Origin: Chiloscyllium plagiosum
Taxonomy: Eukaryota
Length of the DNA stretch: 64,000 nt
Direction of reading: 5' to 3'
Assembly (NCBI RefSeq): GCF_004010195.1
Contig: NC_057719.1
Span: 19,329,503-19,393,502, forward strand
Shown: positions 1,930 to 58,955 of the stretch, piece by piece
Numbering within the stretch: position 1 is the stretch's first letter
Layout: each line of letters opens with the position of its first letter
The notes under the pieces: generated by a model
The model's database searches: none
Seen by the model: only the letters and a program-made list of their open reading frames with translations
What the model was told of the DNA's origin: nothing
Made by a program: the position numbers and the translations under genes

Positions 1930-2698
1930 CTTATGGACCAAGCCAGATCCCTCAAAACATTTCAAGAAGATAGCCCAAACCTAACTTTGCTAGTTATTTT
2001 AAGCAGGTGTACAGTGGATATTCCAGGGGAAATGCAGCTGGTCAAACCACTTAGTTTTAAACAAAACAATTTTTTTACAAGATTACTGAATGAAACATAC
2101 AACAAAGAAAACAGAATACTGAATAATTTAATCTATCCAAAAATCCAACTGATCATCCCAATTTAATGATGCTATTCCAAACACTTGCAACAATCCCCAT
2201 AAACATCCTTTGGCACAAAAGGTAAAATCAAACACAGGTTCTTAGAGGAGAAAAGTCAGAGTACCAGCCTGAACCTGTTTCTTTGGGTCCAATAACATTT
2301 TCTACACTACTGCCAAAAACCAAACCAAACCAGAGAAAAGATCAACTAGGAGAAAGTGAGCTATGCAGATGCTGGAGTACCAGAGTTGAAAAATGTGGTG
2401 CTGGAAAAACACAGCAGGCCAGGCAGCATCTAAGGAGCAGGAGAATTGATGTTTCGGGCATAAGCCCTTCTTCAGGAGAGAAAAGCTGAGCTGGGAGAAC
2501 TGGCCACTTCCCTTACATTGTACATATGATTTTTTTTTAACTTGAAAGCCTTCTGCCTGTTGCAGTATCTGTTAGCTGTAAACAAATTGGCCCTGAAACC
2601 CTTCAATCCCAGACTTTTCAGAGTCTGTGTCTTTTATGACCTCTCTGGAAAAAAAACCAAGGACAGCATACCTTTGTTAAAGGAACAGCGTCATCATA
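1930..2698. mobile_element. Possible solo LTR, interrupted by a mini-PLE
   Basis: Degenerate TG..CA-like ends and non-coding composition; no clear TSD seen. Confidence 0.25.
2349..2477 (-). mobile_element. Non-coding mini-PLE (family A) with hammerhead motif
   Basis: Minus strand reads tcCTGAAGAagggcttatgcccGAAACATC then the PLE terminus; flanked by degenerate direct repeats starting agagaaaag. Confidence 0.8.
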
Positions 2699-3214
2699 AT
2701 ATGAATAGAGGGTATCTCAGTGTGACTTTGAATGCAATGTTGAGAGTTGGATAAGTAAGGGGGTTAGTGGAAGAGGGAAAGGAGGTGCTGATTTATTTCT
2801 TCTAACTTACTCACCTGTCAGGAACTGGTTCTTACTCTAAAACAGAGATGTTTGCTAAGCATCTAGTAAGAACTCAAAGTCTATTTTATATTTAAGGTCA
2901 AACGTTGCCATGCAGTATTGAGGGGGAGCCAGAGGTCTACTTTTTCCCAGTGGCTGTCTGCATATCAGTTTAGTCCACAGTGTGTGGGAAGTTGAGAATG
3001 CTGAAGAATGAGGTTGTAAAAAAGGTGGGTGGGTCAGGAAGCTGACAAGTTTGGAGGAGTTGGTGGAGATGGGTATGCCATAACAGGAGATGGGAGACAG
3101 ATGAGTGATGCATGAGTAGAGTGGTGGTGACAAACAAATCATAAGGGAGATAATGCGAGGCAAGGAGGCGACAAAAGGAATGAAAGAAAAAAATAGTGAA
3201 TTAGGGGAGAATGA

Positions 3215-3371
3215 TTTAGACTCGCCAACTTTGAGGGCATTTAAATGGTCATTGGATAGACATATGGACGAGAATGAAGTGGGATATGGGCTTCAGATTG
3301 GTTCCACAGGTTGGCGCAACATCGAAGACCGAAGGACCTGTACTGCACTGTAATGATCTATGTTCTATGAT
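3215..3371 (+). mobile_element. CR1 3' end fragment
   Basis: Closely similar to 9520-9680; ends in a (ttctatg)-type tail. Confidence 0.8.
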
Positions 3372-3794
3372 GGACAGGCCATAAGGTGCTATAGGGAGGA
3401 AACTAGGAGGTTGAAGGTGGAGAAAGTCAGGGAGGATGCAATGTGCAGGAGGACAAGAGGGCTACACATATTCAGGAGCTACCAAATGGAAAAAAATGGA
3501 ATGGAAAGTCTTATAATGAGCACTGTCTCAATTGCACAATTTGTAAAATGCATAAATTTAAATCTGAGACTGACATCTGACATGCAGCAAAAAGGGTTAT
3601 GACTGCCCACTTAGAGATTTCCAGCTTTCTGATTATTAAAGCAAATACATTAGCTGCGACTTGACCAGTATAGGTTATGATATGAGTGATAACATTTTGT
3701 GTGTAAGATCATTAGATGTAGGAACAGAAGTGAGCAATTCAGCCCATTGAGTTTACCTTGCCATTCAATAGATCGTGGCTGATCATTATCAACT

Positions 3795-4470
3795 GCATGA
3801 ATCACAGGAGGTTGGTTTGTAAGTGCAATTTTGTCCTTCATTGCTAAAGGGATTGAGTTTAAAAGCAGAAAGGTTATGTTGCAGCTGTATAGGGTGCTGG
3901 TGAGGCCACACCTGGAGTACTGCATGCTTTTTTGGGATCCTTATTTAAGAAATGATGTACTAGCACTAGAGTGGGAGCAGAGTAGGTTCACTAGATTGAC
4001 TCCGGAGTTGAGCGGGTTGGCTTATGAGGACAGACTGAGTGCACTGGGATTATATTCATTGTAATGTAGAAGAATGAGGGGGGATCTTATCAACATTTAT
4101 AAAATTATGAAGGGAATAAATAAGATAGAAGTACAGAGGATGTTTCCACTGGTAGGTGAAACTAGGACAAGAGGACGTAGCTTCAAAATTTTGGGGAGAG
4201 ATTTAGGACCAAATTGAGAAAGAACTTCTACACCCAGAGGTTTGTGAATCTATGGAAATCCCTGCCCAGTGAAGTATTGAGGCTTCATCAGCAAGCATTT
4301 TAAAGCTAAGACAGATAATTTTTTGAAAATAAGGGAGTTAAGGGTTATGGTGAGAGGGCGGGTGAGTGGAGTTGAGGCCATGAAAAGATCAGCCATGATC
4401 TTATTGAATGGCGGAGCAGACCCAAAGGGCCAAATGGCCTACTCCTGCTCCTAATTCTTATGTTATGTTG
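3795..4470 (+). mobile_element. CR1/HER1 LINE RT C-terminus and 3' UTR, inserted in an older minus-strand CR1 (3710-3793, 4470-4635)
   Basis: ORF 3831..4064 LYRVLVRPHLEYC..FW.PY..LGLYSL is a typical CR1 RT C-terminus. Confidence 0.9.
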
Positions 4471-7047: not shown

Positions 7048-7346
7048 GGCGGCACGGTGGCTCAGTGACTAGCACTGCTGCCTCACAGCACCAAGGTCCC
7101 AGGTTCGATTCCAGCCTTGGGCAACTGTCTGTGTGGAGTTTGCACATTCTCCTCGTGTCTGCATGGCTTTCTTCCGGGTGCTCTGGTTTCCTCACACAGT
7201 CCAAAGATGTGCGGGGAAGGTGAGTTGGCCATGCTATATTGCCCATAGTGATAGGTGCATTAGTCAGAGAGTTACTCTTCAGAGGGTCAGTGTGGACTTG
7301 GGCTAACGGGCCTGTTTCCACACTGTAGGGAATCTATCTATCTATC
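7048..7346 (+). mobile_element. HE1 / V-SINE, full length
   Basis: tRNA-like head (A box tggctcagtg, B box ggttcgattcc), V-domain tgtgtggagtttgcacattctcc, CR1-like tail ending in atct repeats. Confidence 0.9.
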
Positions 7347-7749: not shown

Positions 7750-8790
7750 TAATACATTCAAGATGACAGATAGATGATGTGCTGTGACTACAGGACATGG
7801 GAATACCTGGATGCCAGTATAATCTAGGGCAAACAGGTCTACAGTAAGTATTAGCAGCTCAAATTCTTCAACCCAGAACTTATAAGCTAAAAGCAGAGCT
7901 GTAGACACTGCACAGGGAGGTTGCTTGGGTATTTCATTTCAGGGGAAGGTCAATATCCCTTAGAGTAGGGTCTTCTGTATTGGTCAGTGGTCAGGCACAG
8001 GCACACTGAGTAAGATAAGTCAGGGCATGAAGAAAGTATGGTGGAGTAGCTTTGACCATTGCAATTGTTCAACAGGTTTGAGGTTCTTGCAGTCTTTACA
8101 GATAAAAGTAGTGGTGACAGAAGATTTGAGTAAAATGACCATGACACCATGGTAGAAGAAACCATTCTGATGGGTGGAGGAGTTAATAGGTTAGTAGTGG
8201 TAATAGTGGACAACATGGCCATGGGGACTAACATGGTTCTTTGCAGCCAAGAGTGAGGGTCCAAAAGACTGTGTTCCCTACCTAGTGCTGGGACATGCAC
8301 TCAGGCCTGGAGAGGAATTTGAAATGGATGGAGGAGGATCCAATGCCCAAAGTCCATGTTGGTACCAACAATATAGCAAGATCTCAGAAAAAGTATTCTG
8401 TCGACGAAGTATGAGCAAGCCCATCAGGTTAATTACATCCCTGAGAATTGGTTTCCAAAGTTCTCTACCACCAAGTTTAGACTGATGGGCCTGTAGTTTC
8501 TGTGTTAATCTATGGCTCCCTTCTTGAACAATGGTACAACATTGGCTGTCCTCTCGTCCTCTGGCACCTTTCCTATGGCCAGAGAGGAATTGAAAATTAA
8601 TGCTAGTGTCCATGCTTTTCCTTACTTGCCTCACTCAATAGCATTCCTGATGAAGGGCTTATGCCAAAAATGATGACTCTCCTGTTCCTCTGATGCTGTC
8701 TGACGTGCTGTGCTTTTCCAGCGCCATCCTTATTGACTCACTCATAGCATGTGATATATTTTATCTGACCCTGATGAATTATCTATTTTT
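7750..8790. mobile_element. Decayed CR1 pieces (ORF1-like + strand 7750-8420; RT - strand 8420-8790)
   Basis: Fragmentary similarity to CR1 ORF1 esterase and RT; many frameshifts. Confidence 0.5.
8645..8736 (+). mobile_element. Mini-PLE family A, degenerate hammerhead, with TSD
   Basis: CTGATGAagggcttatgccaAAAA; TSD ctcactca(a)tagcat at 8630-8644 and 8737-8750. Confidence 0.75.
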
Positions 8791-8797
8791 AAGCCTA

Positions 8798-9436
8798 CCA
8801 GACCTGTACCTCTACCAATGTCATCTACTGCATCCATTGAACCCGGTGTGGTCTCCTCTACATCGGGGAGACAGGACACCTTCTTGCAGACCATTTGAGA
8901 GAACATCTCTGGGACACCTGCACCCACCAACCCCACCGCCCCATGGCTGAACATTTCAACTCCCCCTCCGAGTCCATCAAGGACATGCAGGTCCTAGGCC
9001 TCCTCCACCGCCAAACCGTTACCACCCAACGCCTGGAGAAAAAACACCTCATATTCCGCCATGGAACCCTGCAACCACACAGGATAAATGTGGATTTCAA
9101 CAGCTTCCTCATTTCCCCATCCTGCACATTATCCTAGCCCAAAGCCTCCAATTCGGCACCGCCCTCCAGAGCTGTCCATCACTCCCCCCTCTGACCTATC
9201 ACCTTCTCCCTCACTTTCATCCACCTATCACCTTCCCAGCCACCTTCCCACCAACCCCAACCCCAACACCATCCCATTTATCTATCAGCCCGACCACAAG
9301 CCTCATTCCTGATGAAGGGCTTATGCCGGAAATGTTGACTCTCCTGCTCCTCGGATGCTGCCTGACCAGTTGTGCTTTTCCAGTAGCACACTTCCAACTC
9401 TGATCTCCAGCATCTGCAGTCCTCACTTTCCTCTCC
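8798..9436 (+). mobile_element. Penelope-like (Neptune-type) 3' fragment: GIY-YIG endonuclease + terminal repeat
   Basis: TCTSTNVIYCIH..CGLLYIGETG; ORF 8895..9137 AEHFNSP..LEKKHLIFRHGTLQPHRINVDF; hammerhead-like motif at 9309-9336. Confidence 0.9.
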
Positions 9437-10361: not shown

Positions 10362-10575
10362 AACAAAAACAGAAATTGCTGGAAAAGCTTAACAAGTCTG
10401 GCAGCATCTGTGGCGAGAAATTAGAATTAACATTTTGGGTCAGTTCTGAGGAAGGGTCGCTCAATCCGCAATGTTAACTCTGATTTCCCTCCTCAGATGC
10501 TGCTATACCTGCTGAGCTTTTCCAGCAATTTCTGCTTTAGTTTCTGATTCATACCATATGCAGTTCTTTCCATTT
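10362..10575. mobile_element. Fold-back mini-PLE, family B, degenerate
   Basis: Inverted arms cagaaattgctggaaaagct / agcttttccagcaatttctg around ttCTGAGGAagggtc. Confidence 0.75.
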
Positions 10576-10756
10576 TTAATACACATTTTGGCGGTCGGAA
10601 GTGTATTTATTTTCATGCAAGAAGGATAACAGATAAGGCAGATAAGCTTAGAGTCTGTATTAGCACAAGGAACCACAATATTGTAGCCATTACAGAAACC
10701 AGGTTGAGATAAGGGTTGGACTGGCAGCTCAATGTTCAAGGGTTTAGATTTTGCAG

Positions 10757-10855
10757 TCGAGAGGGTGGTGCTGGAAAAGCACAGCCGGTCAGGCAGCATC
10801 TGAGGAACAAGAGAATCGACGTTTTGGGCATAAGCCCTTCATTAGTATTGTTTTA
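10757..10855 (-). mobile_element. Mini-PLE family A with 12-bp TSD
   Basis: TSD tagattttgcag at 10745-10756 and 10856-10867; splits the CR1 FRFCR|CDREG sequence. Confidence 0.85.
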
Positions 10856-11419
10856 TAGATTTTGCAGGTGTGACAGAGAGGGATGGAAAAGGGGTTGAGG
10901 AGTTGTGTCACAGATTAAAGATAATCTCACCACTGCACTAAGAGAGGACATCTTGGATGGCTAATCCAGCGAGGTCATATGGGGAGAACTAAGGATTAAA
11001 AAAGGTGCAATCACTATGATAAGTTTATACTGTAGGCTTCCTAGTAGCTGGTGGGAAATAGAGGAACAGTTATGTAAGCAGATCATGGAAAGATTTACAA
11101 ACAACAGCGTTGTGATATTGGGTGATTTAACTTCCCCAGAATTGACAGGGACTCCTTCAGTGCTAGCAGCGTAGTGGGGCCAGAATTTGGTGTGTCCATC
11201 CAGGAGGGTTTCCTGAATCAATATGTAGACAGTCCAACTGAGGAATGGGTCGTACTAGACCCTGTATTGGGGAATTAGTTTGGAAGGGTGGTTGAAATTT
11301 CAGTGGGAGAACATTTTGGAAAAAGTGATCATAATTCTGTACATTTTAAAATAGTTATCGGTAAGGTTTAGACTGGCCCTTAGCTGTAAGTGCTTAACTG
11401 GGGGAAACGTAATTGCAAA

Positions 11420-12100
11420 CATCTATTACATTCACTGCTCACAATGTGGTCTTCTCTACATTGGGGAAACAAAGCGTAGGTTGAGTGATTGCTTCACAGA
11501 ACATCTACGTTCTGCCCTCAAAAAAGACCCTGGGTTCCAGTTGCCTGCCACTTTAACACACCACCCTGTTCCCTGGCCAACATCTCTGTCTCAGGCTTGC
11601 TGCAATGCTCCAGCAAAGCTCAATGCAAGCTGGAAGAACAGCACCTCATTTTCCACTTGGGAACCCTGAGGACTCTGGACTCGATATCAAGTGCAATAAT
11701 TTTAGGGTCTGAACTCTTCCATGTCCTAGCCCCCACCACACACACCAGGTCTTGTTATCACACAGTCTACCATTACACACTACCTATTGTTAGCCACTAA
11801 CAGTCTCCATTAGTGGCTATTCACCCTCCTATCCAGATTGTTACTGACTCCTTTGTCTATACGTTTGTTCTTCTCTCTCTGCACTCTATCCCCACCATTA
11901 TTTACTTCTGGTTCCCTCCCCAACCCTACCTTCTACATATAAACCAACATTTTTCTCGCTACCATCGATTCTGAGGAAGGGTCACTACACCCAAATCATA
12001 ATTTTGATTTCTCTTCACAGATGTTGCCAGACCTGCTGAGCTTTTTCAGCAACGTCTGTTGTTGTTTCTGGTTCACAGCATCTGCAGTTCTTGCAGTTTT
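11420..12100 (+). mobile_element. Penelope-like (Neptune-type, family B) GIY-YIG 3' fragment
   Basis: IHCSQCGLLYIGETKRRLSDCFTEH; ..KLEEQHLIFHLGTL; homologous to 41420-42080. Confidence 0.9.
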
Positions 12101-12282: not shown

Positions 12283-13024
12283 GTGTTGAGAAGATTTGTA
12301 GCTCAGGTTGAGGTTCTGGATGTAGGTTTGTTCACTGAGCTGGAAGGTTCATGTTCAGATGTTTCGTCACCACACTAGGTAACATCTTCAGTGAACCTCC
12401 GGATGAAGCATTGCTAATGATTCCTGCTTTCTATTTGTATGTTTGGATTTCATTGGGTTGGTGATGTCATTTCATATGGTGATGCCATTTCGTGTTTCTT
12501 TTTCTCAGGGAGTGGTAAATCGGGTCCAAGTCAATGTGTTTGTTGATAGAGTTCTGGTTAGAATGCCATGCTTCTAGGAATTCTCGTGTGTGTCTCTGTT
12601 TGGCATATCCTAGGGTGAACATGTTGTCCCAGTTGAAGTGGTGTCCCTCCTTATCCGTATGTAAGGATATTAGTGAGAGAGGGTCATGTTGTCCGTCCAT
12701 AGATTTCTCAGCAGCAAACCCAAACAAGCAGACAAAACACGTCCAGAAACTCTAGCCACTCTCCCCTACATTAAAGACACCTTGAAAATGACTGCCAGAC
12801 TACTCAGACCCCTTGATATCATGGTAGCCCACAAACTCACCAACACACTAGAACAGCAGCTAATGAACTTGAAAGACCCTATTCAGACAACAAACAAAAC
12901 TAGTGTTGTTTACAAAGTACCGTGCAAGGACTGTAACAAACACTACATTGGACAATCAGGCAGAAACCTAGCCACCAGGATACATGAACATCAACTAGCC
13001 ACAAAATGACATGACCCTCTCTCA
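12283..13024 (-). mobile_element. Penelope-like (Poseidon-type) element with inverted 5' segment
   Basis: + strand VVYKVPCKDCNKHYIGQSGRNLATRIHEH and - strand HDPLSLISLH..REFLEAWHS are consecutive parts of one GIY-YIG domain. Confidence 0.9.
12353..12396 (-). ncRNA. Minimal type I hammerhead ribozyme motif (PLE family C)
   Basis: gttca-CTGAAGA-t-gttacc-tagtgt-ggtgac-GAAAC-ATC-tgaac: 5-bp stem I, 6-bp stem II, conserved core. Confidence 0.8.
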
Positions 13025-13029
13025 GCATT

Positions 13030-13400
13030 ATTTGAAGTTAGAGAGTCCATTCATCAATTAAAAAACAGCAGGGAAGAAGTTGTTCTTGAACCTGTTGATG
13101 CATGTGTTCAAGCTTCTGTATCTTCTGCCAGACAGAAGAGATTGCAGGAGAGCATTACCAGGGTGGGATGGGTCTTTGATGATGTTGGCAGCCTTTCTGC
13201 AGCACCTGGACGTGTAAGTGGAGGCCGTGGATGGAAGGTTGGCTTCTGTGATGGTCTGGATTGTGCACACCATCTTGTATAGATTCTTATAGTCCTGAGC
13301 AGAGTAGTTGCAACACCAGGCTATTATGCACCTGGACAGAAGGTTTTCAATGGTGCATCTGTAAGCGTTTTGAGGGTCTTTATGCACATGCCAATTCAGG
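13030..13400 (-). mobile_element. Rex1/Babar LINE RT C-terminal fragment
   Basis: ORF 13058..13387 YRCTIE..CIIAW..RKAANIIKDPSHP..LLSGRRYRS..RFKNNFFPA is a characteristic Rex1 C-terminus. Confidence 0.88.
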
Positions 13401-14109: not shown

Positions 14110-17100
14110 GAGGTCTGGAATGTGAGGAGCACGTCATCAGTTGAAAGAACCACCCACCGTGCTCAGCCACGCAAAGCCAATCCTAACAGCCTCCACCACA
14201 AAAGTCACAGGAAAGGCTTCATGCACAAGGAATACAGGTGGTCAGACAAGCTGGAATGCATTCCTCTCCCAAAGCAAAGCAACACTGTCAGGAACTCATT
14301 AACTTTAATCAGACCCTTTAATCAGATCTGGATGGTGAGCTCTGTCCTGGACCTGAATGCTAACAGAGTTTCAAATAAACACTCATAATTCACCCTTTCA
14401 AATCCATCCTTTCCTGATCGAGGGACAGGAAAGCGTTTGACAGACCAGTCCTTTCGGAAACATAGATCAGGTTGGATATTGTTGTGAAGTGTTATCACAC
14501 ACAACTGTGTGACATTCCTATCACCAAAATCACTGTAATCTTTTTCTTCCTTCTTGCTTTTTTTGAACGATTATCCATCACCAGTAAAAACACCTGTGTA
14601 TCCAATTCAATATTTCCATGCAGAACCCATTATGGGTAATGCAAGGCATCAAGGATGAAGGACGGAGGAAAAGTTAGGGAGAGTGGGAGACAGTCAGCAG
14701 AAATGACCCCCTCCACAACCCACTGCCTGGCCCTGTTTATAACCAGGCCCACAGGAAATCGTCTGATCTGCCCACATGCCTCTACACCAGATGCCTAAAG
14801 ATCAGGAGTGTGGGGCTGAAGTGCAACCAAAATCACAATAGAAGGCTTTTCAGAAAGGGAGTGCAAATCTACCAACTCCATTGAGCCGAAAAAGTATACA
14901 GTCGGGCTGGGAGCCCATAAACCATCACAATCTGCAGGTACACAGTAGAAAGAGGGAGGTCTTCTGCGTAGAGAGCCTTCCATTGCCGATCCCTGCCACC
15001 CGGCAGCCAATTAGCCAAGACAGATCTAGACAGTGGATGTAAGTTTCAAGGTGGAGAGTGTGCAGCAGCAGACTGTACAAAAACATCCTCTATGTGCAGT
15101 AAAGAGATGGAGAAAGTGAGGACTGCAATGCTGGAGATCAGAGCTGAAAAATGTGTTGCTGGAAAAGCGCAGCAGGTCAGGCAGCTTCCAAGGAGCAGGA
15201 GAATCGACATTTTGGGCATAAGCCCTTCTTCAGGAATGAGGAGGGTGTGACAAGCAGGCTAAGATAAAAGGTAGGGAGGAGGGACTTGGGGGAAGGGCGT
15301 TAGGAATGCGATAGGTGGAAGGAGGTTAAGGTGAGGTGATAGGGCGGAGAGAGGATGGGGATGGAGAGGTCGGGAAGAAGATTGCAGGTCAAGAAGGCAG
15401 TGCTGAGTCCGAGGGTTGGGACTAAGATAAGGTGGGGGGTGGGGGGAATGAGGAAGCTGGAGAAATCTGCATTCATCCCTTGTGGTTGGAGGGTTCCTAG
15501 GCGGAAGATGAGGCGCTCTTCCTCCAGGCGTCGTGTTGCCATGGTTTGGCGATGGAGGAGGCCAAGGACCTACATGTCCTAGGGGGAGTGGGAGGGGGAG
15601 TTAAAATGTTCAGCCACAGGCAGTTGGGTTGGTTGGTGCGGGTATCCCAGAGGTATTCTCTGAAACGTTCCACAAGTAGGTGGCCTGTCTCCCCAATGTA
15701 GCGGAGGCCACATCAGGTGCAGCGGATGCAGTAAATGATGTGTGTGGAGGTGGAGGTGAATTTGTGACGGATATGGAAGGATTCCTTGGGGCCTTGGAGG
15801 GAAGTGAGGGGGGAGGTGTGGGCACAGGGAATACTGCTGGCCAACAAGGGGCAGCCCTGACATACTTATCTCATAAAAAGAAGGGGCACTGTGAAGAACC
15901 CTTTACCTTTAATCAGACACTCTGCAGTGGTGTCCAGAAGTAAGATTCAGATGATGCGTTCCGAACCCGAGTGTTTGCAGAGTCCCGAATAAATACTCGT
16001 GGTTCAGCCTGTCAAACACCTTCTCCTAAATGATGGACAGGAAGGCACTCATCAGACTAGGCAGCTCTGGGAATTGTGGATCAGGTTCCACCCATCTCCT
16101 CCATGTGGCCTCCCCCTCAGCCAGGAATCCTGGCTGGCAAATTGGCAGGAGCTGGAGGCTAAAATCTTGGCTTGCCGATATCACTGGACAGGACTGTTCT
16201 GAGTGCTATCGTACAGGAGCCAAGTGCTGGTCATAAAGCAACTGGTGGACTCCACGTCATGGTACCAGCTGATCCCTTTGACCCCTCCTCCTGGTTTTGT
16301 TGTGGATCCCCTGGCCCGTAAAAGTGCACAGCTGGTCAGGGTGGATCATCTAATCCGCTGTGAAATGACAACACCCGACCACAAATGTCGTAAGTGAGGA
16401 GGGAGACTGGATGCCAGTTTTTATGTAAATAGTGACTGGCCCATTGCCACAAAAGGAGCAACTCTCTGGGTGCAAAACATTCCTCAAGGAACCAGCATAC
16501 CTTGAAGAACTCCACGGTCAAACCGTCCAGCCGTAAGGACTTACTCCATGTGGAAATCAATCCCTCTTCACTGCCACCTGATGATTCGTTAAGCCTAACA
16601 GTAACAACATTGTGGCCTTCATTGTCCCTGGGGAATAGATGGTAGTTCAGCAGTTGGAGGACCCACTGCATCTCTCGAGGCAACTGACTTGACAGGTCAT
16701 GAACCATGACCCCCAACACCCACAGCTTGTGACTGGGTGGGAGGGGGCTGAGATGCTGACGACTCCCTCTCAGCAAGATTCAGTACTTCACTCTGCCAGT
16801 GACAAAATCCTTCTCCTCTAGGGAGTGGTTCCTCCTGCTGGTCACAACAATGGCCTCCAGTCTCCTCCTTACATAAGTGACTGTACATATGATCCACAGT
16901 CCAGAAGGCAAGATAGGCATGGAGCACAGTGAAGGCTTTCTCAATCACCTCCTCCAGGGCCAAGCTGATGAAGTCCGGCCATCAGAAGGAGTAGAACATG
17001 CTGGAGGCTGCTGTCCTTCAGACTGAGAGAGATGGGCACAACCCCTGAACTCACCTTTCCCGGCTGTCACATGAAATCCTGCCGTGATCTCACCTTTCTC

Positions 17101-40200: not shown

Positions 40201-40852
40201 CCTTTTTTAAAGCAAGGATATATTTATTTCATATCATTTTTTTCTCATAATGTTTCTTCAGTCTTAATAGGGCCTGAAAGGACTCGCCCCAATCTGTTTG
40301 CATGATTGATATTAACCTTAATATCTCGCCTACATGTGTGAAATTTAGAAAGCTCTTAACAACAATAAGAATGCATTAAAGGTAAAAGTCTGATAAAAGT
40401 CAAAAAGTAATGAAAAATATCAGTACAGTTTGTTGCACTTGAGGACAGCTAGAAGATGAAAAATAGTTGCATTTGTTTAGCAGACTAATTCGTTGGCTGT
40501 TGCAGACAAATCATTGTCATTTGGTGGAGCTAAAAGAAGATAGAAATGACTTGTGCTGAATGGTCAGTTGCATGTCCAGCATTTTGACAGTAAGAATGTG
40601 ATCTATGACAAAGATTGCTCTGGATCCTAAGTTCAGATTCCCAGTTGCAATATATATACGAATGTGTTGAACAAGAATAGTTCCTACCAACATGTAATTT
40701 GCTCCCTTTAGACTATCAGGTATATAGTAACTTGAATTTTTAAGTTTTTGTTTGCATTTACTCTGTTTCAAGAGAAGAAAAATATCTCTTTCCTCTGGTT
40801 GACAGCTGTGTAAGTCATCGTGAAGGAAATAAAGAAAAAAAAGAGGACACAA

Positions 40853-42080
40853 TCACCTTGACTATGTATCCTCACATCCTGCTTCCTGTAAAAACCTGAT
40901 TCCATTTTCCCAGTTCCTCCATCGCTGTTGCATCTGTCCTGATGATGCTAACTTCAACGACGGAGCTTCCGAAATGTCCACCTTCTTCCTCAATTGAGGA
41001 TTCCCCAGCACTATAGTTGACAGCTGGGTCTGACCCATTTCCCACACTTCAACCCTCACCCTCTCTTTTCCTCCCCATAATAATGAAAGAGTTGCACCAT
41101 CCCACCTGCATCCAGATCCAGAGGATCATTAGCCACTATCACCATCACTTCCAGTGGGATACCACCAGCAGACACATATTCTACCCCTTCCCTTGTCAGC
41201 TTTTCTTTGGAACCATTCCTTTCAGGACACCCTGGACTACTTATCCTTCATTGCCAACATCCCCCACAACACCTTCCTCTGATCAGTTTGGTGTCAACTA
41301 CACAGGGTTCAATTTCTCTTCTCAATGCAGCTACCAAGTTCACTTCCTCCCTCCTCAGTATCCCAGGGCTCAAAATTACCTTCCAGGTGATGTAGCACTT
41401 TATCCGCACTTGTCACAATCTAGTCTACTGCATTCGCTGCTCACAATGTGGTCTCCTCTGCATTGTGGAAATGAAACATAGACTGAGTGATTGCTTTGCA
41501 GAACATCCAAGTTCTGTCTCAAAAAATGGCCCTGAGCTTACAGATCCTTGCCACTTCGATACACCATTGTGTTCCCTGGCCAACATCTCTGTCTCAGGCT
41601 TGCTGCAGTGCTTCAGTGAAGCTTGCTATAAGCTGGAAGAACAGCACCTCTCTTTCCTCTCTGAACTCTACAGCCTTCTGGACTCAATAGCAAATTCAAC
41701 AATTTTAGGGCTTGAGGCACTGTCTCCCACGCCCTTACCCAACACACACACACGTCACTAGGCATTGTTATCATATGGTCTGCTATTACACACAATCCCA
41801 TTATTCGCCATAAGTAGTCCCTATTAATAGTTATTCATTGTCCTAGGCTGACCATAGTCCACTCCTTTTTCTGTCCAACTGTTCCTCTATCACTTTGGGC
41901 TTTATCATTCACTTCTTCCCCCCCTCACCACCACCTATCTTCTGCACAAAAAAAACTAACATTTCCCTTGCTACCATCAGTACTGAGGAAGGGTCACTGG
42001 ACCTGAAACGTTAACTCTGATTCCTGTCCACAGTTACTATCAGACCCACTGAACTTTTCCAGCAACTTCTATTTCTGTTT
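40853..42080 (+). mobile_element. Penelope-like (Neptune-type, family B): RT thumb, GIY-YIG and terminal repeat
   Basis: LDYVSSHPASCKNLIPFSQFL; LVYCIRCSQCGLLC..; KLEEQHL.F. Confidence 0.9.
41979..42016 (+). ncRNA. Minimal type I hammerhead ribozyme motif (PLE family B)
   Basis: agta-CTGAGGA-a-gggtc-actg-gacct-GAAAC-GTT-aact; core intact, one mismatch closing stem I. Confidence 0.7.
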
Positions 42081-43159: not shown

Positions 43160-44620
43160 AGAGAGAAACACAGGAAATGAAAGCAGAGTAGGTTGTTCAG
43201 ACCATTAAGCCCCCACTGCCAATCAACAGAATCACAGCTAATCCTCCATCTCAATGCCATACATCACCTTTCTTCCCAGAAAGGTATCTATTTCTTAAAT
43301 ACCTTCAGTGATTCAGCATCTACAGCCCTTCTGTGGGAGGGGATTTTATGTATTCACCACTGTCAAAGTGAAGCAATTTCTCCTCATATCAGATCAAAAT
43401 GGCTTACTGCACACCCTGAGATTATGACTCTTTGTTCTGGATTCCACCCCAGTCAGGGGAAACATCATTCCTGCATCAAATTCATAAAGCCAGAATTTTA
43501 TGTTTCAATAAAAACCCCTCTAATTCTTCTAAGATCCAGTGACCTGATTTCTCCTCTAATGATAAATCTGCCATCCCTGGAAACAGTCTGGTGAGCCTTT
43601 GCTGTATTCCCTGTATGGAAGTGCATCTTCTCTTAGTTAGGGATTCGAAACTGCACACAATACTACACGTGTGGTCTCAACTTGGACAGTACAGTTCCTG
43701 TGTGACTGTTCTCAAACCCTCTTGTAATGAAGAACAACGCTTCACTTGTTTTCTGAATTTTTTGCAGCACATATATGCCTGCTTTCAGTGACAGGTGTAC
43801 AAGGACACCCAGTTCCCTTTTTATGTCAATACTTCCCAATCTATTACCATTTAAGTAACACAGCTGTCATTCTTCCGATAGAAGTAGCTAACTTCTTCCA
43901 AATCATGCTAGAGAGAGAGGGAGGTAGTGAAGAGAGAGAGATGGCTGGTGGTGATTTAACCTGAGAGTCACACTGCCTCAGCTGAGGGGAGAGATTGACT
44001 TCTCCATGGTAACCTCAACCACTGCTAGAACTGAGCACATGTTGTTGACGTCACTCTGTGTTGTGAGCCAACTGTCCAGCTAACTGAGCTAACTAACTGA
44101 GGAGCAGGAGAGTCCGTGTTTCGAGCATAAACGCTTCATCAGGAATGAAGGTCTATGACCTATCCTAAGAAAGTAACTCAGGTGAAGAGCGCTCCTGATG
44201 AAGAGCTTATACTCAAAAAGTCGACTCTCCTGCTCTTCAGGTGCTGCCTGACCGGTTGGGCTTTTACAGCACCACATTTTTTGATTCTGATCTCCAGCAT
44301 CTGCAGTCCTCACTTTCTCCCTGAGCTAACTAACTCCCTATATTACATATTACAAATATTTGTCCACTCATTCAAATTACTATCTTGACACTTCTTTACT
44401 TCCTCCTCACCTCTTAACATACACAATTCCACTTAGTTTTGTGTAATCAGCAAACTTGAAAATAATACATTTGATTTCCATATGCAAACCATTGATCCAT
44501 ATTGAGAATAGCTGGTGTCTAAGCGCTGATCACTGCAATATCTCAGTTGTCACCACCTTCCACTCTATGAAAAACCCATTTATTCCTACCTTCTGTTTCC
44601 TCTCTGCTCAGCAACTCTCA
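43160..44620 (-). mobile_element. CR1 fragment containing a tRNA-SINE (43905-44098, -) and a mini-PLE
   Basis: CR1 3' similarity either side; the SINE matches 51687-51890 and 23130-23250. Confidence 0.75.
44099..44320. mobile_element. Fold-back mini-PLE family A with perfect 15-bp TSD
   Basis: TSD ctgagctaactaact at 44084-44098 and 44321-44335; two opposed CTGATGA hammerhead remnants. Confidence 0.88.
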
Positions 44621-46522
44621 TGTTCCATTCCTGAGAGTGCAGCAGAAGGCCTCAGAATTGGACTGAGACTCTGGAGTCTATTAGGTGCTGTGTCAGCAGG
44701 AATCTATCTGTTACAAACATGGCCCATGATATTAGCTGGACTTAGGTTGAAGGAGAAAATTGCAAGGTTGGAAACTTCCTTACCCACCTTGCCTCAATAA
44801 TTCTGAGGGGCAGTTCCGGTGGGGTATAATAAAACTTACTGACCTGCTCAGCAACCTAGGTGGAGTCCCAACATGGAACCTCGACCTGGTTACTGGAGGC
44901 AAGGATCTAGTAGCTGGAAGAGATATGGCATCAGGAATGAAGGTCTGTGAGCCATTCTAAGAAAATAATGCAGGTGAAGAGCATTGGACACCCCAGTGCC
45001 ATCTCACCAAATCTCCTTAGTCTCATGGGCTCCCAAGATTATCATTGTGTTGCGAGTTCTCGCCAGGTTCATGCTAATGAGGAACCTTCCCTATGATCCA
45101 ATAGATCCTGTTGGAGAGTCTTGGCATTTAGGGGAAAAGCCCATCAATTTGTGGGCTCTGTGAGTTGGAACTGCTTCTGGGTTCAGAACTTGCAACTCAT
45201 TGAGTAGGAGACACTCCTTGGAATTTCATCAAGAACACCCCTTTATTTGGCATGGAGATAGGTTCTCTGTGCAGTTAAGTGCAGCACATAGGCACTCGCA
45301 GTTGGAGGCTAATCAGAGACGTCTTCAGTTTTCAGGAAGGGACTGACTATAACTAATGGTAACTGTAAAGGTGCTTTATCTTGGAGGTCTCCCCTCCACA
45401 ATCTCCTTAAATTGTCTCTGAAAGTGAAGCAAATTGAGCTAGGTCACGATTGTGTTCCATTTCGTTGTCTACATTTGTCTTTGAGATATTATGTTAAAAG
45501 TATCCTTGCAAAAGAAGCATACTTAACCATGATGCTACTGTTATTGTTGCCCTGATCTGATTCTGTCCACCTCATTGCTCCTTTAACCCTGTCCAACAAT
45601 CTCCTCATCCCACCCCACTACCACCACCACTTTTCTCTGGATTTGGAAAAACGCTGAAATGTTAACATTAATACAACTGTCTATGTACCTGTTTCACAAC
45701 TGCTGAACACCCCAACTTGCACATGTCTGAATTAGAGATGATCCCCCTTCAGATTTTTCACAGGTGTAACTCTATGTTTAAGTTCAAATGTAAGGTCTCT
45801 CAGGCGACGTTTACTTATATCTAAGTTTGCAGCACTGTGTTTTCCTGTTTGTATAATTAGCACGCTTACAGTGCTCCGCGAGTGATGATCACATGCAGCA
45901 GATGTGCTCAATTAAGACTTTATGAGAATTTGTTTAACAAATAAGTCAAATAACGAGCGAAAGGGAATGAAACATTGTTTTCCATCAGCTGGAATATGGC
46001 ACATTATTACTTTAATGGAAGCCTTCTGAGAGTTTTTCTTTTCTTACTTGCCAAAAGTTGTGAACAGCTTCTGTCTGAATTTGGAATAAGCTCCTCAGGC
46101 TAGGCACTACAAAAGTAAATCTGCCCTGGAATGTCTGCTGCTTCTTAGTTGATCCTACCACTCACAGTCAACGAAAAGCCAGATGGAACTATTGTTCTGA
46201 CCTGCAGACTCACTAGATTGAGTTCTGAATGGACTTAACCTTTTTTTACTTAATAGCAATTAAAAGTAATTAAACATTTAATCTCTAAAATACAAAATTT
46301 AACCTCAGCAGCAGAATAGTACATTTTTCTTAAACTCTGTGTAAATGGGTGGATGATTTAAAATTTCACTCAGCGTGTTACACATTGGAAGCTTCTATTT
46401 TTTTTAGAGAGCATATCATCACAGTTAGGAGAAAGTGAGGTCTGCAGATGCTGGAGATCAGAGCTGAAAATGTGTTGCTGGAAAAGCGCAGCAGGTCAGG
46501 CAGCATCCAAGAAACAGGAGAA

Positions 46523-46554
46523 TCGACGTTTCGGGCATAAGCCCTTCTTCAGGA
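46523..46554 (-). ncRNA. Minimal type I hammerhead ribozyme motif, intact core
   Basis: tc-CTGAAGA-a-gggc-ttat-gccc-GAAAC-GTC-ga. Confidence 0.75.
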
Positions 46555-46560
46555 ATGGCT

Positions 46561-46592
46561 TCCTGAAGACGGGCTTATGCCCGAAACGTCGA
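46561..46592 (+). ncRNA. Minimal type I hammerhead ribozyme motif, intact core
   Basis: tc-CTGAAGA-c-gggc-ttat-gccc-GAAAC-GTC-ga. Confidence 0.75.
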
Positions 46593-47426
46593 TTCTCCTG
46601 TTCCCTGGATGCTGCCTGACCTGCTACGCTTTTCCAGCAACACATTTTCAGCTATCATCACGGTTACACAATATATTACCAGTACAGAACCAATATTATT
46701 TTCTTGAATTTGTAAGTTATTTATGCTTTGCTTTAGATATCATACCATTGCATATTCAAATTTTGGTCTCATCAAATAAAATGTATGAAAAGATAGTTAA
46801 TGATTTCCAACCTACAGAAAAAAAATTAAAGCATCAGCAAAAAATGATCTAATTGGTTCATTTATCTCTTGGAAAAAGAGTCAAGGTGACCTAAGATTAA
46901 AATTATGAATGATTTTCATAAAAAAAGATAGGGTGATTGCACTTATTGAAGAGTGAAACCAAAAGAATAGAATTGTTAGTAAGAAATTATGTAAAGAAAT
47001 CAGAAGACATTTCTATCCTCAGATAGTGATGAAAATGCAGATTTTGTTACAACACTGAGTGAAATTTGGAACTGACATGTGGTAACTAAGTATCTGTAGG
47101 TTATTATATATTAAAACCATCACATACTGTATTCAGCTTCTTGGTGGCAAGAACTTTAGAGTGACTAAGAAGACAAAAACAGGAAATATGTCTTGCCCTA
47201 ATTGCTACTGTTTTTCTTTCATAAGAAAGTCATTTTGAAATGAGTTAAGGTCTTTTGGTGAATCAAGTCCTCTGCTTCTACATTCTATGGAAAACTATCC
47301 TAGTGAACCAAAATCCGTGTACAGTTTATCTAAATTCTAAATGAGGTGAGAGGTGTTGCTGGAGATACTCTTGAATTACAATTAAATGCTCTTTAATGTG
47401 TTACACATCCAACTATTATAATGAAT

Positions 47427-47597
47427 TGGAGGTGCCGGTGGTGCACTGGGGTGGACAAAGTTAAAAATCACACTACACCACGTTATCATCCAACAGGTTT
47501 ATTTGGAAGCACTAGCTTTCAAAGAAGCAGCAGTGCTCCAAAAGCTAGTGCTTCCAAATAAACCTGTTGGACTATGATCTGGTGCTGTGTGATTTTT
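47427..47597. mobile_element. Fold-back mini-element, PLE-derived family D
   Basis: Perfect 31-bp inverted repeat 47489-47519 / 47541-47571 within ~60-bp arms; 16-bp TSD aactattataatgaat at 47411-47426 and 47598-47613. Confidence 0.85.
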
Positions 47598-47874: not shown

Positions 47875-48004
47875 TAAAGACAGAAAGTGCTGGACAAACT
47901 CAATACTTTTAGCAGTATCTGTTATTGTTTTGAGTGCCGTGAGTTTCTCCAGCACTTTCTGTCTTAATTTCAGATCTCCAGCATCGGCTGTTCTTTGTTT
48001 TAGT
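47875..48004. mobile_element. Fold-back mini-PLE remnant
   Basis: Arms aagacagaaagtgctgga / tccagcactttctgtctt; TSD ttagacaa(c/t)cagcaa at 47860-47874 and 48005-48019. Confidence 0.8.
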
Positions 48005-50020: not shown

Positions 50021-51429
50021 CCATCTTCCTTTCCATCTTTCTCAATCTTGTCTTTCATTTCTTTTTCTCTCTTTCTGGACTTCATTTGACTTGACTTCAT
50101 CATCTTCCTCCATCAGGCAATTAAAAAAAAATTCTCATTGTTTATGGAGATAGACATTGAATCCACCATCCACCAAGGCCCATGAAGACCCGTTGTTCTC
50201 ATTGCATTACCACCAGCTCACACTTTTCAGATAATAAAACTGAAGGATGAGGGGAAATGTTCAATAATTGGGTGTGTAGACTCCAGTAACTTTGGACTGA
50301 TATTGTGTTGATATGACAGATAAGCATCCTGAGAAGACACTATGTCCGGAATGTTAACAGAGTGCTGATGGTTCTGCGTTGTGTTTCCAGAATTTTCTGG
50401 TTTCATTTTAATTTCCAGCATTTGCAGTTTCTTTTTGATATATTTCATCAAGCACGCTCTGTTTATAGTGGAAGGGATGGTTTTATGAGTCTCCACCACA
50501 GGCGGGCGAGGGCACCTGCTGGTACTAAGGACTGCTAAAATTGCCCCAAGGATATAACAGGAGGAAATGAGGTTTTAAGCCTTGAAGGGGGTTATGTGAC
50601 TAAAATAAATACTGTGTCATTCAGCAGGAGCTATGATAAAGTCCAACGTCTTCCCCTGGCATATATAACGTAAATGTTGGAATGTTTTGAATCAGTAACT
50701 ATTTGATTGTTTCTAGTCTTCCGATTCCAGCTAAATTTCTGAATCTCCAGCCCAGCTTTCAGAAGTTAAGCACTCAAAACAGGCTGTAAATCTGACTAAA
50801 CGTTGCTCGCAAAAGCAAAATATTCCACATGTACCAGTTTAATGCAAATTAGATGCCTGTAATTAGTTCTAGAGTGGTAATTTAGTGCACAAAAATAATT
50901 ATTCAAAACCTCTTTTTTCCAATTAATGCCCAAGACAGAAAAGTCTGGTTTACCCTTCTCCCCCTCCCTAAAGAAAACAAAAACACTGTGCTAATGTATC
51001 ATTATATCATCTAAACAAACTTCTAAATAGCCAGGCTGTAAAGAAAATAATGTAAGCTGCATTCCGTCTGAAATAGTTCTCCTTAAGAGTTACTGAGCGA
51101 GAAGGACATTGTGGTATGTAGGTTTCACATTGGTTATTTACCTTTTGCTAGTGTATTTTCATGTTTGTTACATTGGTGTGTGGTAGACGAAGGGATTTTC
51201 CAAAGTTTTTCTTGAATTTGGCCATGGGAAACAAACTGGCAGGATTACTTTTAACACTTCAATATTCTCAAACCAAAGTTTCACATGATAAGACAACTCC
51301 AGATAAAGGTTATGGCCCCCTCAATGGCTAAGGAATCACATTACTCACAAAACAAGCACAGTATTCCCAGTACCTGAAGCTCTGTGCCAGCAGTCTGGAA
51401 GATAGTACAAGATAATGTGTGAAATGTTA

Positions 51430-52095: not shown

Positions 52096-53726
52096 CTCAG
52101 CGGATAATACAAGCAATAATGGACCAAGCTAGCTATTGTTATGGACAGAAGGTGTCTTCATTAGTTCCACATTCACCAAAGTATAAGAACTATGGTTAGA
52201 GATCGTGATCAGTGAGTTCATGGTGTAGTGATTTACATGGATAAGGATGTTGAGGGTGACTTCTGTTATCCTTCATGAACTGGTTGATATAAGTTGTGTT
52301 AGTGGTTTAAAGAATAACATGACTGCATTAGGGAGTGAAAATAGGAAAATGTCTTACTTGCTATCCAGTGTACCTGACAGAGAAGCCTTAATGTATAGAC
52401 ATTGACTGAGGAGAAGATTGTGCTCAGTGGTGTTGTCCTCCACTGTTGATCTCTACCATTTGTTATCCATGCTCAAGCATGACCTGGCTGAGGTAACAGA
52501 GGCTGAAGGTGGAAGAGAAATTGAACAGGTCTCACAGCATCTGTGGAAAGGGAAACAGAGTTAACATTTCAAGACCAATGTTCAGGTTCCAAAGAAGAGC
52601 CATTGGATCTTTGTTTTACTCTCCGCACAGATGCTCCAGACCGACTTTAGCTTTAAATTATGGTGTTAATGGAGACAACTGGCACCTGGGAAACTATACC
52701 CCCGCTTGAATATATATATTATATTTATAAAATGTATATGAAACTGTACCCGCCTTCAGGAGAAGAAAATAGGAGAATTGGGGGTTGAGTAAAAGATTTA
52801 TTTTAAATGAGCCACTGCCTCCACTAAAATGTCAAGCATGTATTTCAGATGAATACATCTTGCGTTCACACCTTTTTAATTCACAAAGTAATTTGGTTTT
52901 GAACTGAATCCTTCAAATGATATTTGGGTGTTTGTGTCAAAACAGCCCGGATGACATGAAAAAGATAGCTGGGAGGAGTTGCCAGGCCTGACAGTAAGAG
53001 GGGGCGAATTGGCATAACAGAACTACAGTGTACTCAGAGGGAGGTTTGATTTTGTTGTTTGTTATATGCTGTAAGCAGAGTTGTTTTGTTCGTGTTGAGA
53101 CAATAATAACTGAAGTGTTGTCTCCTGTAGTGAGGTCTTTACCTGATGTTACATGTTTCATAAGCTTGTTTGTGCAGAAGTGATTCCCAGCCTGAGGCAC
53201 TGGGTAAATCTCATTCTCACCGCACTCTTCCGCTGTAGTTTGCAATATGGATTTTAAACAAAACTTGTAAACTTCCAACTGTGCACGTATAGGATTTTTC
53301 TGGACTTCAAGGTTTTGCTGACTGTTTGTTCCCCCTTGCTCCCTCCCTCCTCGTTATATGGACAGGAGTCAGAGATTTCCCTCCTGGGCTAAAGCAGAGT
53401 TTTTGAAATTTTCACTTTACTGGTCGATTCAGTGACGAACTAGTGCAGTACCTGATTTCTACCATTAAGTGCTGTCAGTGAGCTATGTAAACAGTTTGGC
53501 AGCTCCCAAAGGCAGAAACTGTCAGAACACTTTGCAGAATTAATGTTTAAGACATTTTTCTCACAGTTATGATGTAGCCCAAAGCAACAGCAATACTTTT
53601 TAACACTACCTGACCTGCTGAGTACTTTCATACCAATGAAGACCATAGATCTGACTTTATCATTAGCACTTGTGTCCGATAGAAAGTATGGCACAGTTTT
53701 AATACTCTTCATTGTTTTCCTTTCAG

Positions 53727-56980: not shown

Positions 56981-58101
56981 ATTGCCTAATTTCTCTGGGT
57001 CTATGATATATTAGTCTATGTTGTACATAATTCTGGCCAAAATCTGTTGAAAGAGCAACACACTTATTTACAAATGCTTAGTATAAATATTTATACTCTT
57101 TTTTGATGAAAAGTTTGAAGATATGAGTTTTGGACTAGAAACATCTGACCACTGATAAATTAGTCAGGATGTGTGAACAAGCTATATCCTGACTCCAATC
57201 TGCCCTATAATTTAAGTTTTTCACGTTGTGCGGCAGATGCATTGAATTGCATGGGTTCTTTACATTTTATTTGCTTGGCCCCCATATGCTTAATAAAATA
57301 AAAGAGATGACTTGCAAAGGAACATTCATGCGGCTGTACGGACAAGTGGCCCTGCAGCTAGAAGGAAGTTTTGCTTTCTGGCCAGTTTGTAGTGGGTTTG
57401 ATTACTAATGTCACCTGAAGTGTAAACCTGTTTGTTTAAACATTATCTGTCCACACATGGTTCAATAGGTGATGTGCTGTTTAGAATCAAGTTGCTTCAC
57501 CTTGGAATACTGCAGAAAAACTGAAATTGTCCAGTCCTAATGTTGGAACCTTACATCTAGAAACAAGTATTGTAGCCCATTATCAGTCTGACTTAATCTT
57601 AACTTTCAAACAAGCAGTATGCGTAGGTTTTACGAAATTGTTCCACATGATTTGGTAACATGTTCATTTTAACTCACTCTATTCATTATTGCAAGTGCAG
57701 CTTTACCTAGATTAAAATGAATGGTTAAGTGCTTTATTTAACATACTGGACAGAGGAACTTCATATAAGCATGTTGAGTCATTTGCAATGAGCTCTGCAA
57801 TGAGACCTGTAGGAGATAAAAAAAATAGGAAACACTGGAGATACTCAGCAAATAAGGCTAATATACTAAGAAAGCACTAGATTATTCATGTCTCAGGTGA
57901 GACATATTGCAGAAAAAAAGGTTTTATACCAAGAATATTGACTGTCTCCTGCTTTCTTAAGATATGCTTTCCGACCTGTTGTATATCTCTAGCCTTTTCT
58001 TATTTTACTTCAGATTTTCATCATTTATGGTTTTTTGAATCTATTCTAAGTCTATTCATAGGGAATGAGTTGCATTAATTTTTCTTTTTATCAATATCTA
58101 G

Positions 58102-58268
58102 GTGCAGTAGCCACTGCTGAGTTTATAGTGGAGAGTGCTGGGATTCTAAGACTGGATCTACGAAGGAATAGAATTAGGACTGGAGGTCTGATGGCCCTAT
58201 CTCTCGCACTGAGACTAAATCATTCATTGGTCAGACTGGATTTGGACAAGGAACCAATGGGTGAGACA
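58102..58268 (+). CDS. PPP1R37: PPP1R37-like coding exon H (GAVATAEFIVESAGILRLDLRRNRIRTGGLMALSLALRLNHSLVRLDLDKEPMGET)
   Basis: tatctag acceptor; gtaagt donor; 167 nt, phase 1 to 0; within ORF 58065..58298. Confidence 0.94.
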
Positions 58269-58867
58269 GTAAGTAGGCAAGGGTTGGTCAGCGAGTAACT
58301 GCTTTAGGTGAACTATTACTTTTGCAAATTCACTCAGCATACTTGTCTTCACAGTGGCTTGAATAACAATATCTTTATGCCACCCGGATAAAGGAGAGAG
58401 TGAGACTAATTATGTGATGAAAGCTTTGCCAAAATTGAAATAGCTCACAGCATATTGGTAAAATTCCTAATGAGCTGCAAAGATAAAGATGCCTATAAAA
58501 TATGATATGGCCTTTGAAGAAGTTACTGTTGTATTAAATCTCTTCTTTCTGCCAATTGCATCTCTTCTCACAGCATTGGAATCGTGCTGGGCACATTTCA
58601 AGAGATACCAATTGGACACAAACTGTTTTGTCATAAACGCTGAATGGCAAACCATTCATTTTCTTAACTGACAGGCACTTTTGTGCACTCCAGCTGGGGT
58701 CTATCAACTGAGGTACCTTTTTACAGTCAAGGTAGGGTTTTGTGCAGTGGTAGCATCTCTATCTCTGAGCTTGGGGGCCTGGGTTCAAGGTCAACTCACC
58801 CTGGCGATGTGTCATACCATGTCTGAGCAAGTTACTTGAAAATTATTAGACCCTGGGCCAGGAGATG

Positions 58868-58955
58868 GAAATGTGTTGCTGGAAAAGCGCAGCAGGTCAG
58901 GCAACATCTAGGGAACAGGAGAATCGATGTTTCGGGCATTAGCCCTTCTTCAGGA
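58868..58955 (-). mobile_element. Mini-PLE family A with hammerhead motif
   Basis: tcCTGAAGAagggctaatgcccGAAACATCgattc; flanked by cctgggcc(a/t)gg repeats. Confidence 0.8.

What the first reader, a model, noticed from the sequence alone, without database searches (positions are those of the whole stretch)
2349..58955. Dispersed system of short non-coding PLE-derived elements built around a hammerhead, from at least four families
Seen: copies at 2349, 8645, 10362, 10757, 44099, 46428, 47427, 47875 and 58868 (weaker at 50327, 52500, 57822) consist only of the PLE terminal repeat, single or inverted. Several begin right at the CTGANGA core, and six have clear 12-16 bp TSDs. The same termini cap the GIY-YIG-coding fragments at 9303, 11970, 12283, 15109 and 41979. 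Stem II differs by family yet always pairs (gggc/gccc, gagc/(g)ctc, gggtc/gacct, gttacc/ggtgac), i.e. covariation is visible within one window. Inference: ribozyme-associated short RNAs are retrotransposed independently. PLE hammerheads are known; the diversity, fold-back form and regular TSD length in a shark may be poorly described.
Basis: partly seen in the sequence, partly recalled or inferred. Interest (0 to 1): 0.72.

Follow-up and report, generated by a model that had tools for sequence, protein, structure and literature searches.

The report
Penelope end-module insertions in a shark
These short repeats are the ribozyme-bearing end pieces of Penelope-like jumping genes, a known kind of element, but they stop just in front of the ribozyme rather than at its cut site, which may mark where the element's RNA begins.

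Summary
The elements are real. They are the terminal 90-130 nt module (minimal hammerhead plus 'tail') of Penelope-like elements (PLEs), the module that also ends five GIY-YIG fragments here. Six have 12-16 bp TSDs. Solo hammerheads, inverted arms and a one-sided tail are published PLE features. Corrections: stem II is fully paired in only 8 of 15 copies, and two listed elements lack the core. Ends do not match self-cleavage. Outer ends fall at two sites like the published internal RT start sites. Inner ends lie 0-8 nt upstream of the core in 10 of 20 arms, about 30 nt from the cut site. Contigs from three species show the same pile-up. The peak is the A of an initiator-like motif, one copy has TATAAA at -29, and the first clipped base hints at a cap-derived G. 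Best reading: run-off ('strong-stop'-like) cDNAs from the 5' end of uncleaved PLE RNA; this is inferred, not shown. The scan reported these elements and the 5' clustering before, on other pieces of this genome.

The parts
2349..2476 (-). Solo family A module with tail; core C3 at 2475; 5' end 2 nt upstream of C3; degraded flanking repeat
8643..8732 (+). Solo family A module without tail; C3 at 8647; TSD about 15 bp with one indel, overlapping the 5' end
8802..9433 (+). 5'-truncated PLE: GIY-YIG fragment, 3' UTR, family A module with tail (C3 9309; initiator-like heptamer 9303-9309)
10362..10574 (.). Fold-back family B: left arm without tail, stopping in stem II; right arm starts 4-6 nt upstream of C3 (10446) and has the tail; weak TSD
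10757..10845 (-). Solo family A module without tail; TSD 10745-10756 / 10856-10867 with 10 filler bases
11412..12099 (+). 5'-truncated PLE: GIY-YIG fragment, 3' UTR, family B module with tail (C3 11971)
11938..11943 (+). TATAAA 29 nt upstream of the position where short copies begin (candidate TATA box; consensus and spacing recalled)
12283..13030 (.). Family C (Poseidon-like) PLE fragment: module and endonuclease C-terminus on minus, thumb to GIY-YIG on plus (5' inversion near 12705); best-paired hammerhead, C3 12391 (-)
15109..15832 (-). 5'-truncated PLE: GIY-YIG fragment, 3' UTR, family A module with tail (C3 15233; predicted cut 15206/15205; loose-end peak 15237)
40848..42080 (+). 5'-truncated PLE: RT thumb to GIY-YIG, 3' UTR, family B module without tail (C3 41983)
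44099..44320 (.). Fold-back family A: left arm cut short at its 3' end, spacer of about 45 nt, right arm with tail; TSD 44084-44098 / 44321-44335
46428..46652 (.). Fold-back family A: left arm with tail, right arm without; both cores intact; TSD 46414-46427 / 46653-46666
47427..47597 (.). Fold-back family D: 32-nt extension on the left arm only; arms stop in or near stem II, no intact core; TSD 47411-47426 / 47598-47613
47875..48004 (.). Fold-back B-like element that stops downstream of the hammerhead (no ribozyme sequence); tail on right arm; TSD 47860-47874 / 48005-48019
50326..50431 (+). Diverged B-like solo module beginning at the core; no TSD found
52500..52645 (.). Decayed B-like fold-back; no TSD found
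57822..58040 (.). Decayed B-like fold-back; no TSD found
58868..58955 (-). Solo family A module without tail; C3 58953; weak TSD
220..304 (-).

Best explanation
The elements are dead-on-arrival insertions of the PLE end module, made by the element's own RT-endonuclease from uncleaved RNA. Shown here: PLE origin, TSDs, two outer ends 35-40 nt apart, inner ends piled at the upstream edge of the hammerhead. Taken from the literature: PLE RT starts at two internal sites downstream of the hammerhead, cuts and extends both target strands, and does not need ribozyme cleavage. Inferred: the PLE promoter lies in the upstream repeat and transcription starts about 4 nt before the core, so the mRNA carries the RT-start module twice, at its 5' end and again at its 3' end. 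Priming at the 3' copy gives ordinary truncated copies with UTR and endonuclease. Priming at the 5' copy runs off the RNA end after about 90 or 130 nt, like retroviral strong-stop DNA, and gives the solo modules. Priming at both target ends gives head-to-head fold-backs with different centres and often one tail. PLE origin about 0.9; the run-off step about 0.55.
For: Window: 10 of 20 arms end 0-8 nt upstream of C3, 4 run on into UTR and ORF, 6 stop further downstream. Under geometric truncation the worst case is P about 1e-5 after allowing for 70 possible windows. Family A outer ends lie 86-90 or 125-127 nt from C3 (9 of 10 arms), matching two RT starts and a 30-40 nt tail (PMC11167929). Runs of three species: loose ends listed at 15237 (400, 372, 425 contigs; agreement 0.31-0.32, AT-rich, so mixed flanks) and at 15228 (410, 454); depth falls across this edge 2.7-, 3.8- and 2.2-fold, and 4-fold in the RNA run. 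Position 15237 is the A of TCATTCC, present in both family A coding copies (background 0.012 per position); one family B copy has TATAAA at -29 (background 0.0009). The first clipped base at 15237 is C on the plus strand (G on the sense strand) in 3 of 3 DNA runs, and all 4 listed joints from 15237 have inserts starting with C. An untemplated 5' G is the accepted mark of a copied cap in LINE-1 and SVA (PMC4859970).
Against: No transcript 5' end was measured. One search shows only 24 of 2267 loose-end rows, by an unstated rule; two runs were not fully counted; the three species share old insertions and are not independent. The cap hint is a plurality letter of unknown share, it cannot be the templated base, and the RNA run shows A there. 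No window arm shows an extra G, window ends scatter from 0 to -8, and 3-4 arms reach 1-4 nt past the proposed start. Only 1 of 4 A/B coding copies has a consensus TATA; the B coding copies match the initiator at 6 of 7 positions (41983) or fail (11971); family C does not fit. Motifs were sought after the peak was seen. In D. virilis the start site lies 46 nt plus a 75-nt intron upstream of the hammerhead. Part of the depth drop may come from divergent UTRs. Some strand-switch joints have one arm ending at 15201-15206, near the cut site (1-6 contigs each).
Confidence: 0.55

Rival explanations
1. Non-autonomous, SINE-like families: a few short master copies are transcribed from the front of the hammerhead and copied in trans by PLE protein.
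For: It predicts the same sharp ends. Short copies outnumber coding-linked ones 16 to 4 among A/B arms. Non-autonomous PLE derivatives are known (Chlamys; retrozymes).
Against: Both family A subtypes contain a coding-linked copy and short copies. Fold-back centres differ in all 7 elements. Short copies lack the upstream TATA region. A tree of 12 modules left family A unresolved, so this rival is not excluded.
Confidence: 0.2
2. Ordinary 5' truncation with a hotspot: RT stalls or jumps at the folded hammerhead or on entering the pyrimidine-rich 3' UTR.
For: PLEs are heavily 5'-truncated. Three arms plus the family D arms stop in or near stem II. Ends scatter over about 9 nt.
Against: RT meets the structure from its 3' side, so a stall should leave ends inside or downstream of it, not just past its upstream edge (inference). 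Four A/B modules fold no better than shuffles (z -0.09 to -0.91). It does not explain the initiator-like motif or the G hint.
Confidence: 0.17
3. Retrozyme-like system: self-cleaved short or circular RNAs are retrotransposed on their own.
For: Hammerhead motifs are real. A few fold-back joints have an arm ending at 15201-15206. Non-LTR retrozymes derive from PLE repeats and occur in the one chondrichthyan sampled.
Against: No window arm starts at the cut site. No tandem head-to-tail units of the module occur. The motif is the minimal type, which does not cleave as a monomer. Cleavage was dispensable for PAc insertion in vitro. 8 of 15 cores are broken.
Confidence: 0.04
4. Fold-backs arise by self-priming on an antisense template, as proposed for rotifer Penelope elements.
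For: Proposed in PMC3846280 for head-to-head repeats with palindromic junctions. 46428 is a near-perfect hairpin.
Against: The arms usually differ at their outer ends (tail on one side), centres are asymmetric or hold a 45-nt spacer (44099), and it does not explain solo copies with the same inner end.
Confidence: 0.04

Closest known systems
Minimal hammerheads (min-HHR) of metazoan PLE terminal repeats (Cervera and De la Pena 2014, PMC4209133; parts 1-2 of 4 read)
   Same: Type I core, one extra base before stem II, short stem I, palindromic positions 15.2-16.2, several families per genome with compensatory changes, mostly dispersed single motifs, some pairs on opposite strands.
   Different: In the parts read, that work gave no boundaries or TSDs for solo motifs and named no cartilaginous fish.
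Insertion architecture of endonuclease-positive PLEs: pLTR, inverted 5'-truncated copy, one-sided 30-40 bp tail (PMC3846280, passages and Discussion; PMC8557442, passages)
   Same: Head-to-head inverted arms, optional tail at one end, TSDs, predicted TATA and initiator in the rotifer pLTR.
   Different: Here most insertions are only the module; clear TSDs are 12-16 bp against 8-10 bp in the rotifer examples; inner ends pile at the hammerhead's upstream edge.
PAc (Poseidon of Anolis) internal RT initiation (Frangieh et al. 2024, PMC11167929; parts 1-2 of 4 and passages read; the supplementary figure gave no usable text)
   Same: Two RT start sites downstream of the hammerhead define the tail; both target strands are cut and extended; uncleaved RNA is the substrate.
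   Different: The main text does not mention a transcription start or template jump (0 hits). A 5' boundary of genomic copies could appear in Fig. S2, which I could not see.
Non-LTR retrozymes (PMC7229834, passages; bioRxiv 10.64898/2026.07.22.740005, parts 1-3 of 5)
   Same: Non-coding, hammerhead-bearing, related to PLE terminal repeats.
   Different: Defined as head-to-tail tandem repeats; these copies are solo or inverted, carry the minimal motif and are not bounded by the cut site.

Membership tests
Endonuclease-positive PLE fragments | Module contiguous with a GIY-YIG ORF end in the same orientation | tested here: met
   tblastn with PLE proteins P0001 and P0002 hits 4 A/B fragments upstream of modules; Pfam GIY-YIG only below cut-off (E 0.038, 0.15); family C frame read directly.
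Endonuclease-positive PLE fragments | Optional 30-40 bp tail giving two 3' ends | tested here: met
   Family A ends 86-90 or 125-127 nt from C3 in 9 of 10 arms; loose ends at 15109/15128 and 15148/15152.
Endonuclease-positive PLE fragments | Inverted 5'-truncated copy, head to head, tail at one end | tested here: met
   7 fold-backs; long plus short arm in 10362, 46428, 47427, 47875; long plus clipped arm in 44099; likely in 57822; unclear in 52500.
Endonuclease-positive PLE fragments | Full-length RT-EN ORF between tandem pLTRs | not testable with these tools
   None in the window; no genome held. Clade labels (A/B Neptune-like, C Poseidon-like) rest on fragment likeness and recalled motifs.
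PLE minimal hammerhead | CUGANGA, extra base, stem II, GAAA, palindromic 15.2-16.2, NUH, short stem I | tested here: met
   Met at family level; 7 of 15 copies keep the core, 4 pass the strict descriptor.
PLE minimal hammerhead | Self-cleavage as dimer or with protein | not testable with these tools
   Needs an assay.
Non-LTR retrozyme | Head-to-tail tandem units, each with a hammerhead | tested here: not met
   No such array in the window; other loci not examined.
Non-LTR retrozyme | Unit RNA bounded by the cleavage site, linear and circular | tested here: inconclusive
   DNA ends are not at the cut site; the RNA run showed no place where many molecules start or end, but it is a poly(A) single-cell library, 2% read.
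Non-autonomous SINE-like PLE derivative | Own lineage distinct from coding-linked copies | tested here: inconclusive
   Tree unresolved within family A; subtypes are shared with coding copies.

The most novel reading that the evidence does not exclude
PLE mRNA in these fish starts about 4 nt before the hammerhead core, and most short genomic copies are integrated run-off cDNAs from that capped end, a PLE counterpart of strong-stop DNA. This one intermediate would explain solo hammerheads, inverted pLTRs and, by template jumping, partial tandems, with no role for ribozyme cleavage in setting the ends.
Probability: 0.4. Interest if true: 0.65.

Novelty: new variant of a known kind. Interest (0 to 1): 0.42.

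Why it matters
How PLEs build their tandem and inverted ends is described as still undefined (PMC8557442). If the short copies are run-off products, their junctions are a large natural record of transcription starts and RT starts, and the model can be tested with genome counts, CAGE and the existing in vitro PAc system. If not, this is an abundant but ordinary set of truncated PLE ends.

Tried and rejected
No genome was held, so no full end histogram, copy number or Dfam/Repbase comparison was possible. Rfam: 8 matches up to E 5, none a hammerhead; 7 are miRNA-type hairpin matches on two fold-backs and all are below gathering score. Motif scans for more copies: 0 in viral contigs, 0 in genome contigs, 0 and then 3 in metagenome contigs; the 3 are GC-rich chance matches limited to 21-25 bases. 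No RNA holder listed by word index; one raw RNA run was laid and cannot show transcript starts. The hammerhead-like match at 40939 lies inside RT-thumb coding sequence and was dropped. A downstream promoter element was looked for by eye at +28 to +32 and was not convincing. A tree of 12 modules separated only A from B (the 44142 arm, F and C were left out). 11971 has a 1-nt deletion, so its pair counts are approximate, and it was left out. The Lunse et al. dimer paper was not held and is cited only through the review PMC6765202 (passages). Searches for prior description: none of the listed papers containing 'Penelope-like' also contains 'strong-stop' (15 of 24 listed). Most subscription journals and repeat databases were not searchable, so absence from print is not established.
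Full report
What is there. The window is vertebrate DNA rich in repeats; the closest protein to one endonuclease fragment is a bamboo shark prediction at 74% identity, so a cartilaginous fish is likely. A profile trained on 9 window copies finds 20 arms of one related group at E<0.01, against none below E 0.1 in 5 shuffles. I call them family A (10 arms), family B and its diverged relatives (10 arms). Families C (12283) and D (47427) are unrelated in sequence. Four A/B arms are the 3' ends of PLE fragments that match PLE proteins by tblastn: GIY-YIG, then a pyrimidine-rich 3' UTR, then the module, all in one orientation. The other 16 arms are module only, solo or as head-to-head fold-backs.

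Target site duplications. Six are clear, 12-16 bp, p<=0.0007 against 3000 random pairs, and 68% AT against 57% for the window. Three more are weaker (2349, 58868, 10362). Of 12 short elements, 3 show none.

The ribozyme. The motif is the minimal type I hammerhead described for PLE repeats: core, one extra base, stem II, GAAA, a four-base palindrome in place of stem III, short stem I. Four copies pass a strict descriptor against 0.03 expected. Families A, B and C use different stems I and II that pair, and family D has a different palindrome, so compensatory change between families is real but rests on few events. At copy level 7 of 15 keep the core and 8 of 15 pair stem II fully; most stem III changes look like CpG decay. 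On 12 aligned copies 80.8% of cells pair, against 13-45% for slid registers, but covariation is only marginal against shuffles (16-47 of 500). 47875 holds no hammerhead sequence and 47427 no intact core. The copies look like decaying insertions, not conserved RNAs.

Outer ends. Family A arms end 86-90 or 125-127 nt downstream of C3 in 9 of 10 cases. This is the optional PLE tail, which in the anole element corresponds to two internal RT start sites. In 4 of 7 fold-backs one arm is long and one short, as drawn for PLEs generally. The seven centres all differ, so the mirror half is built at insertion. The anole protein cuts and extends both target strands, which offers a direct route.

Inner ends. 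Ten of 20 arms begin 0-8 nt upstream of C3, 4 continue into the UTR, and 6 stop downstream, three of them in stem II. None begins at the predicted cut, 28-30 nt downstream of C3. The profile itself starts at -5, so upstream extension was tested separately against the coding copies. A geometric-truncation null gives about 1e-5 at worst. I laid contigs of three DNA runs from three organisms and one RNA run on 15070-15670 at 80% identity. Listed loose ends at the 5' side are 15237 (400, 372, 425 contigs, 147 reads) and 15228 (410, 454, 158; the same class, broken at a subtype difference). Their clipped sequence is AT-rich with agreement near 0.3, as mixed flanks would be. Depth falls 2.2- to 4-fold across this edge. 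No listed end is at the cut site, but only 24 of 2267 rows were shown and two runs were not fully counted. A few strand-switch joints pair an arm at 15233-15241 with one at 15168-15206, including 1-6 contigs near the cut site; cleaved RNA may be an occasional template.

Why stop there. Position 15237 is the A of TCATTCC, an initiator-like heptamer (consensus recalled) in both family A coding copies; the matching family B position reads TCAGTAC in 41983 and fails in 11971, which has TATAAA at -29. The first clipped base at 15237 is a sense-strand G in all three DNA runs, and the 4 listed inserts at joints from 15237 begin the same way. An untemplated 5' G is taken as a copied cap in LINE-1. Against this: the share is unknown, the RNA run shows A, no window copy has the G, some arms pass the site by 1-4 nt, family C does not fit, and the fly element starts further upstream, across an intron. 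PLE promoters do lie in the upstream repeat. If transcription starts at -4, the mRNA has the RT-start module at both ends, and priming at the 5' copy gives exactly these 90- or 130-nt products. I put this at about 0.55; SINE-like masters (0.2) and a truncation hotspot (0.17) remain open.

Comparison and novelty. The elements work like, and by the tested features are, truncated insertions of endonuclease-positive PLEs with minimal hammerheads. They fail the tandem test for non-LTR retrozymes in this window. Dispersed solo motifs, opposite-strand pairs, inverted arms and tails are in print. I did not find the pile-up at the upstream edge, or a run-off explanation, in the papers listed; repeat databases, subscription journals and one key supplementary figure could not be seen. 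Earlier notes of this scan on the same genome report the same elements and the same 5' clustering. I had noted the run-off idea before reading them, and they are not independent support. A word search for notes with TATA, initiator and transcription start found none.

Verdict. Observation largely right, interpretation partly right. A known kind of element with one unexplained, testable regularity. Interest 0.42.

Noticed in passing
window 12283-13030: The family C PLE fragment has a 5' inversion near 12705 with a short overlap at the breakpoint, like the twin-priming inversions of LINE-1 (concept).
   Followed up: partly
window 1-304 (-): A partial module lies in direct orientation just upstream of a PLE RT fragment; could be a template-jump product or an internal deletion.
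   Followed up: partly
window 24443-32457: Satellite array of a 26-bp unit, about 260 copies in three blocks, with three N gaps.
   Followed up: no
window 21061-21830: Inverted arms of 123 nt, 76% complementary, 524 nt apart; possibly a MITE-like element.
   Followed up: no
window 42750-42890 (+): A further GIY-YIG fragment with no module behind it.
   Followed up: no
window 7056-7146, 20119-20209, 42450-42579: Copies of a tRNA-like SINE (probably the elasmobranch HE1 family, name recalled).
   Followed up: no
window 34402-35180: Two LINE 3' ends (CR1-like, label recalled) joined tail to tail, giving a 152-nt inverted pair.
   Followed up: no
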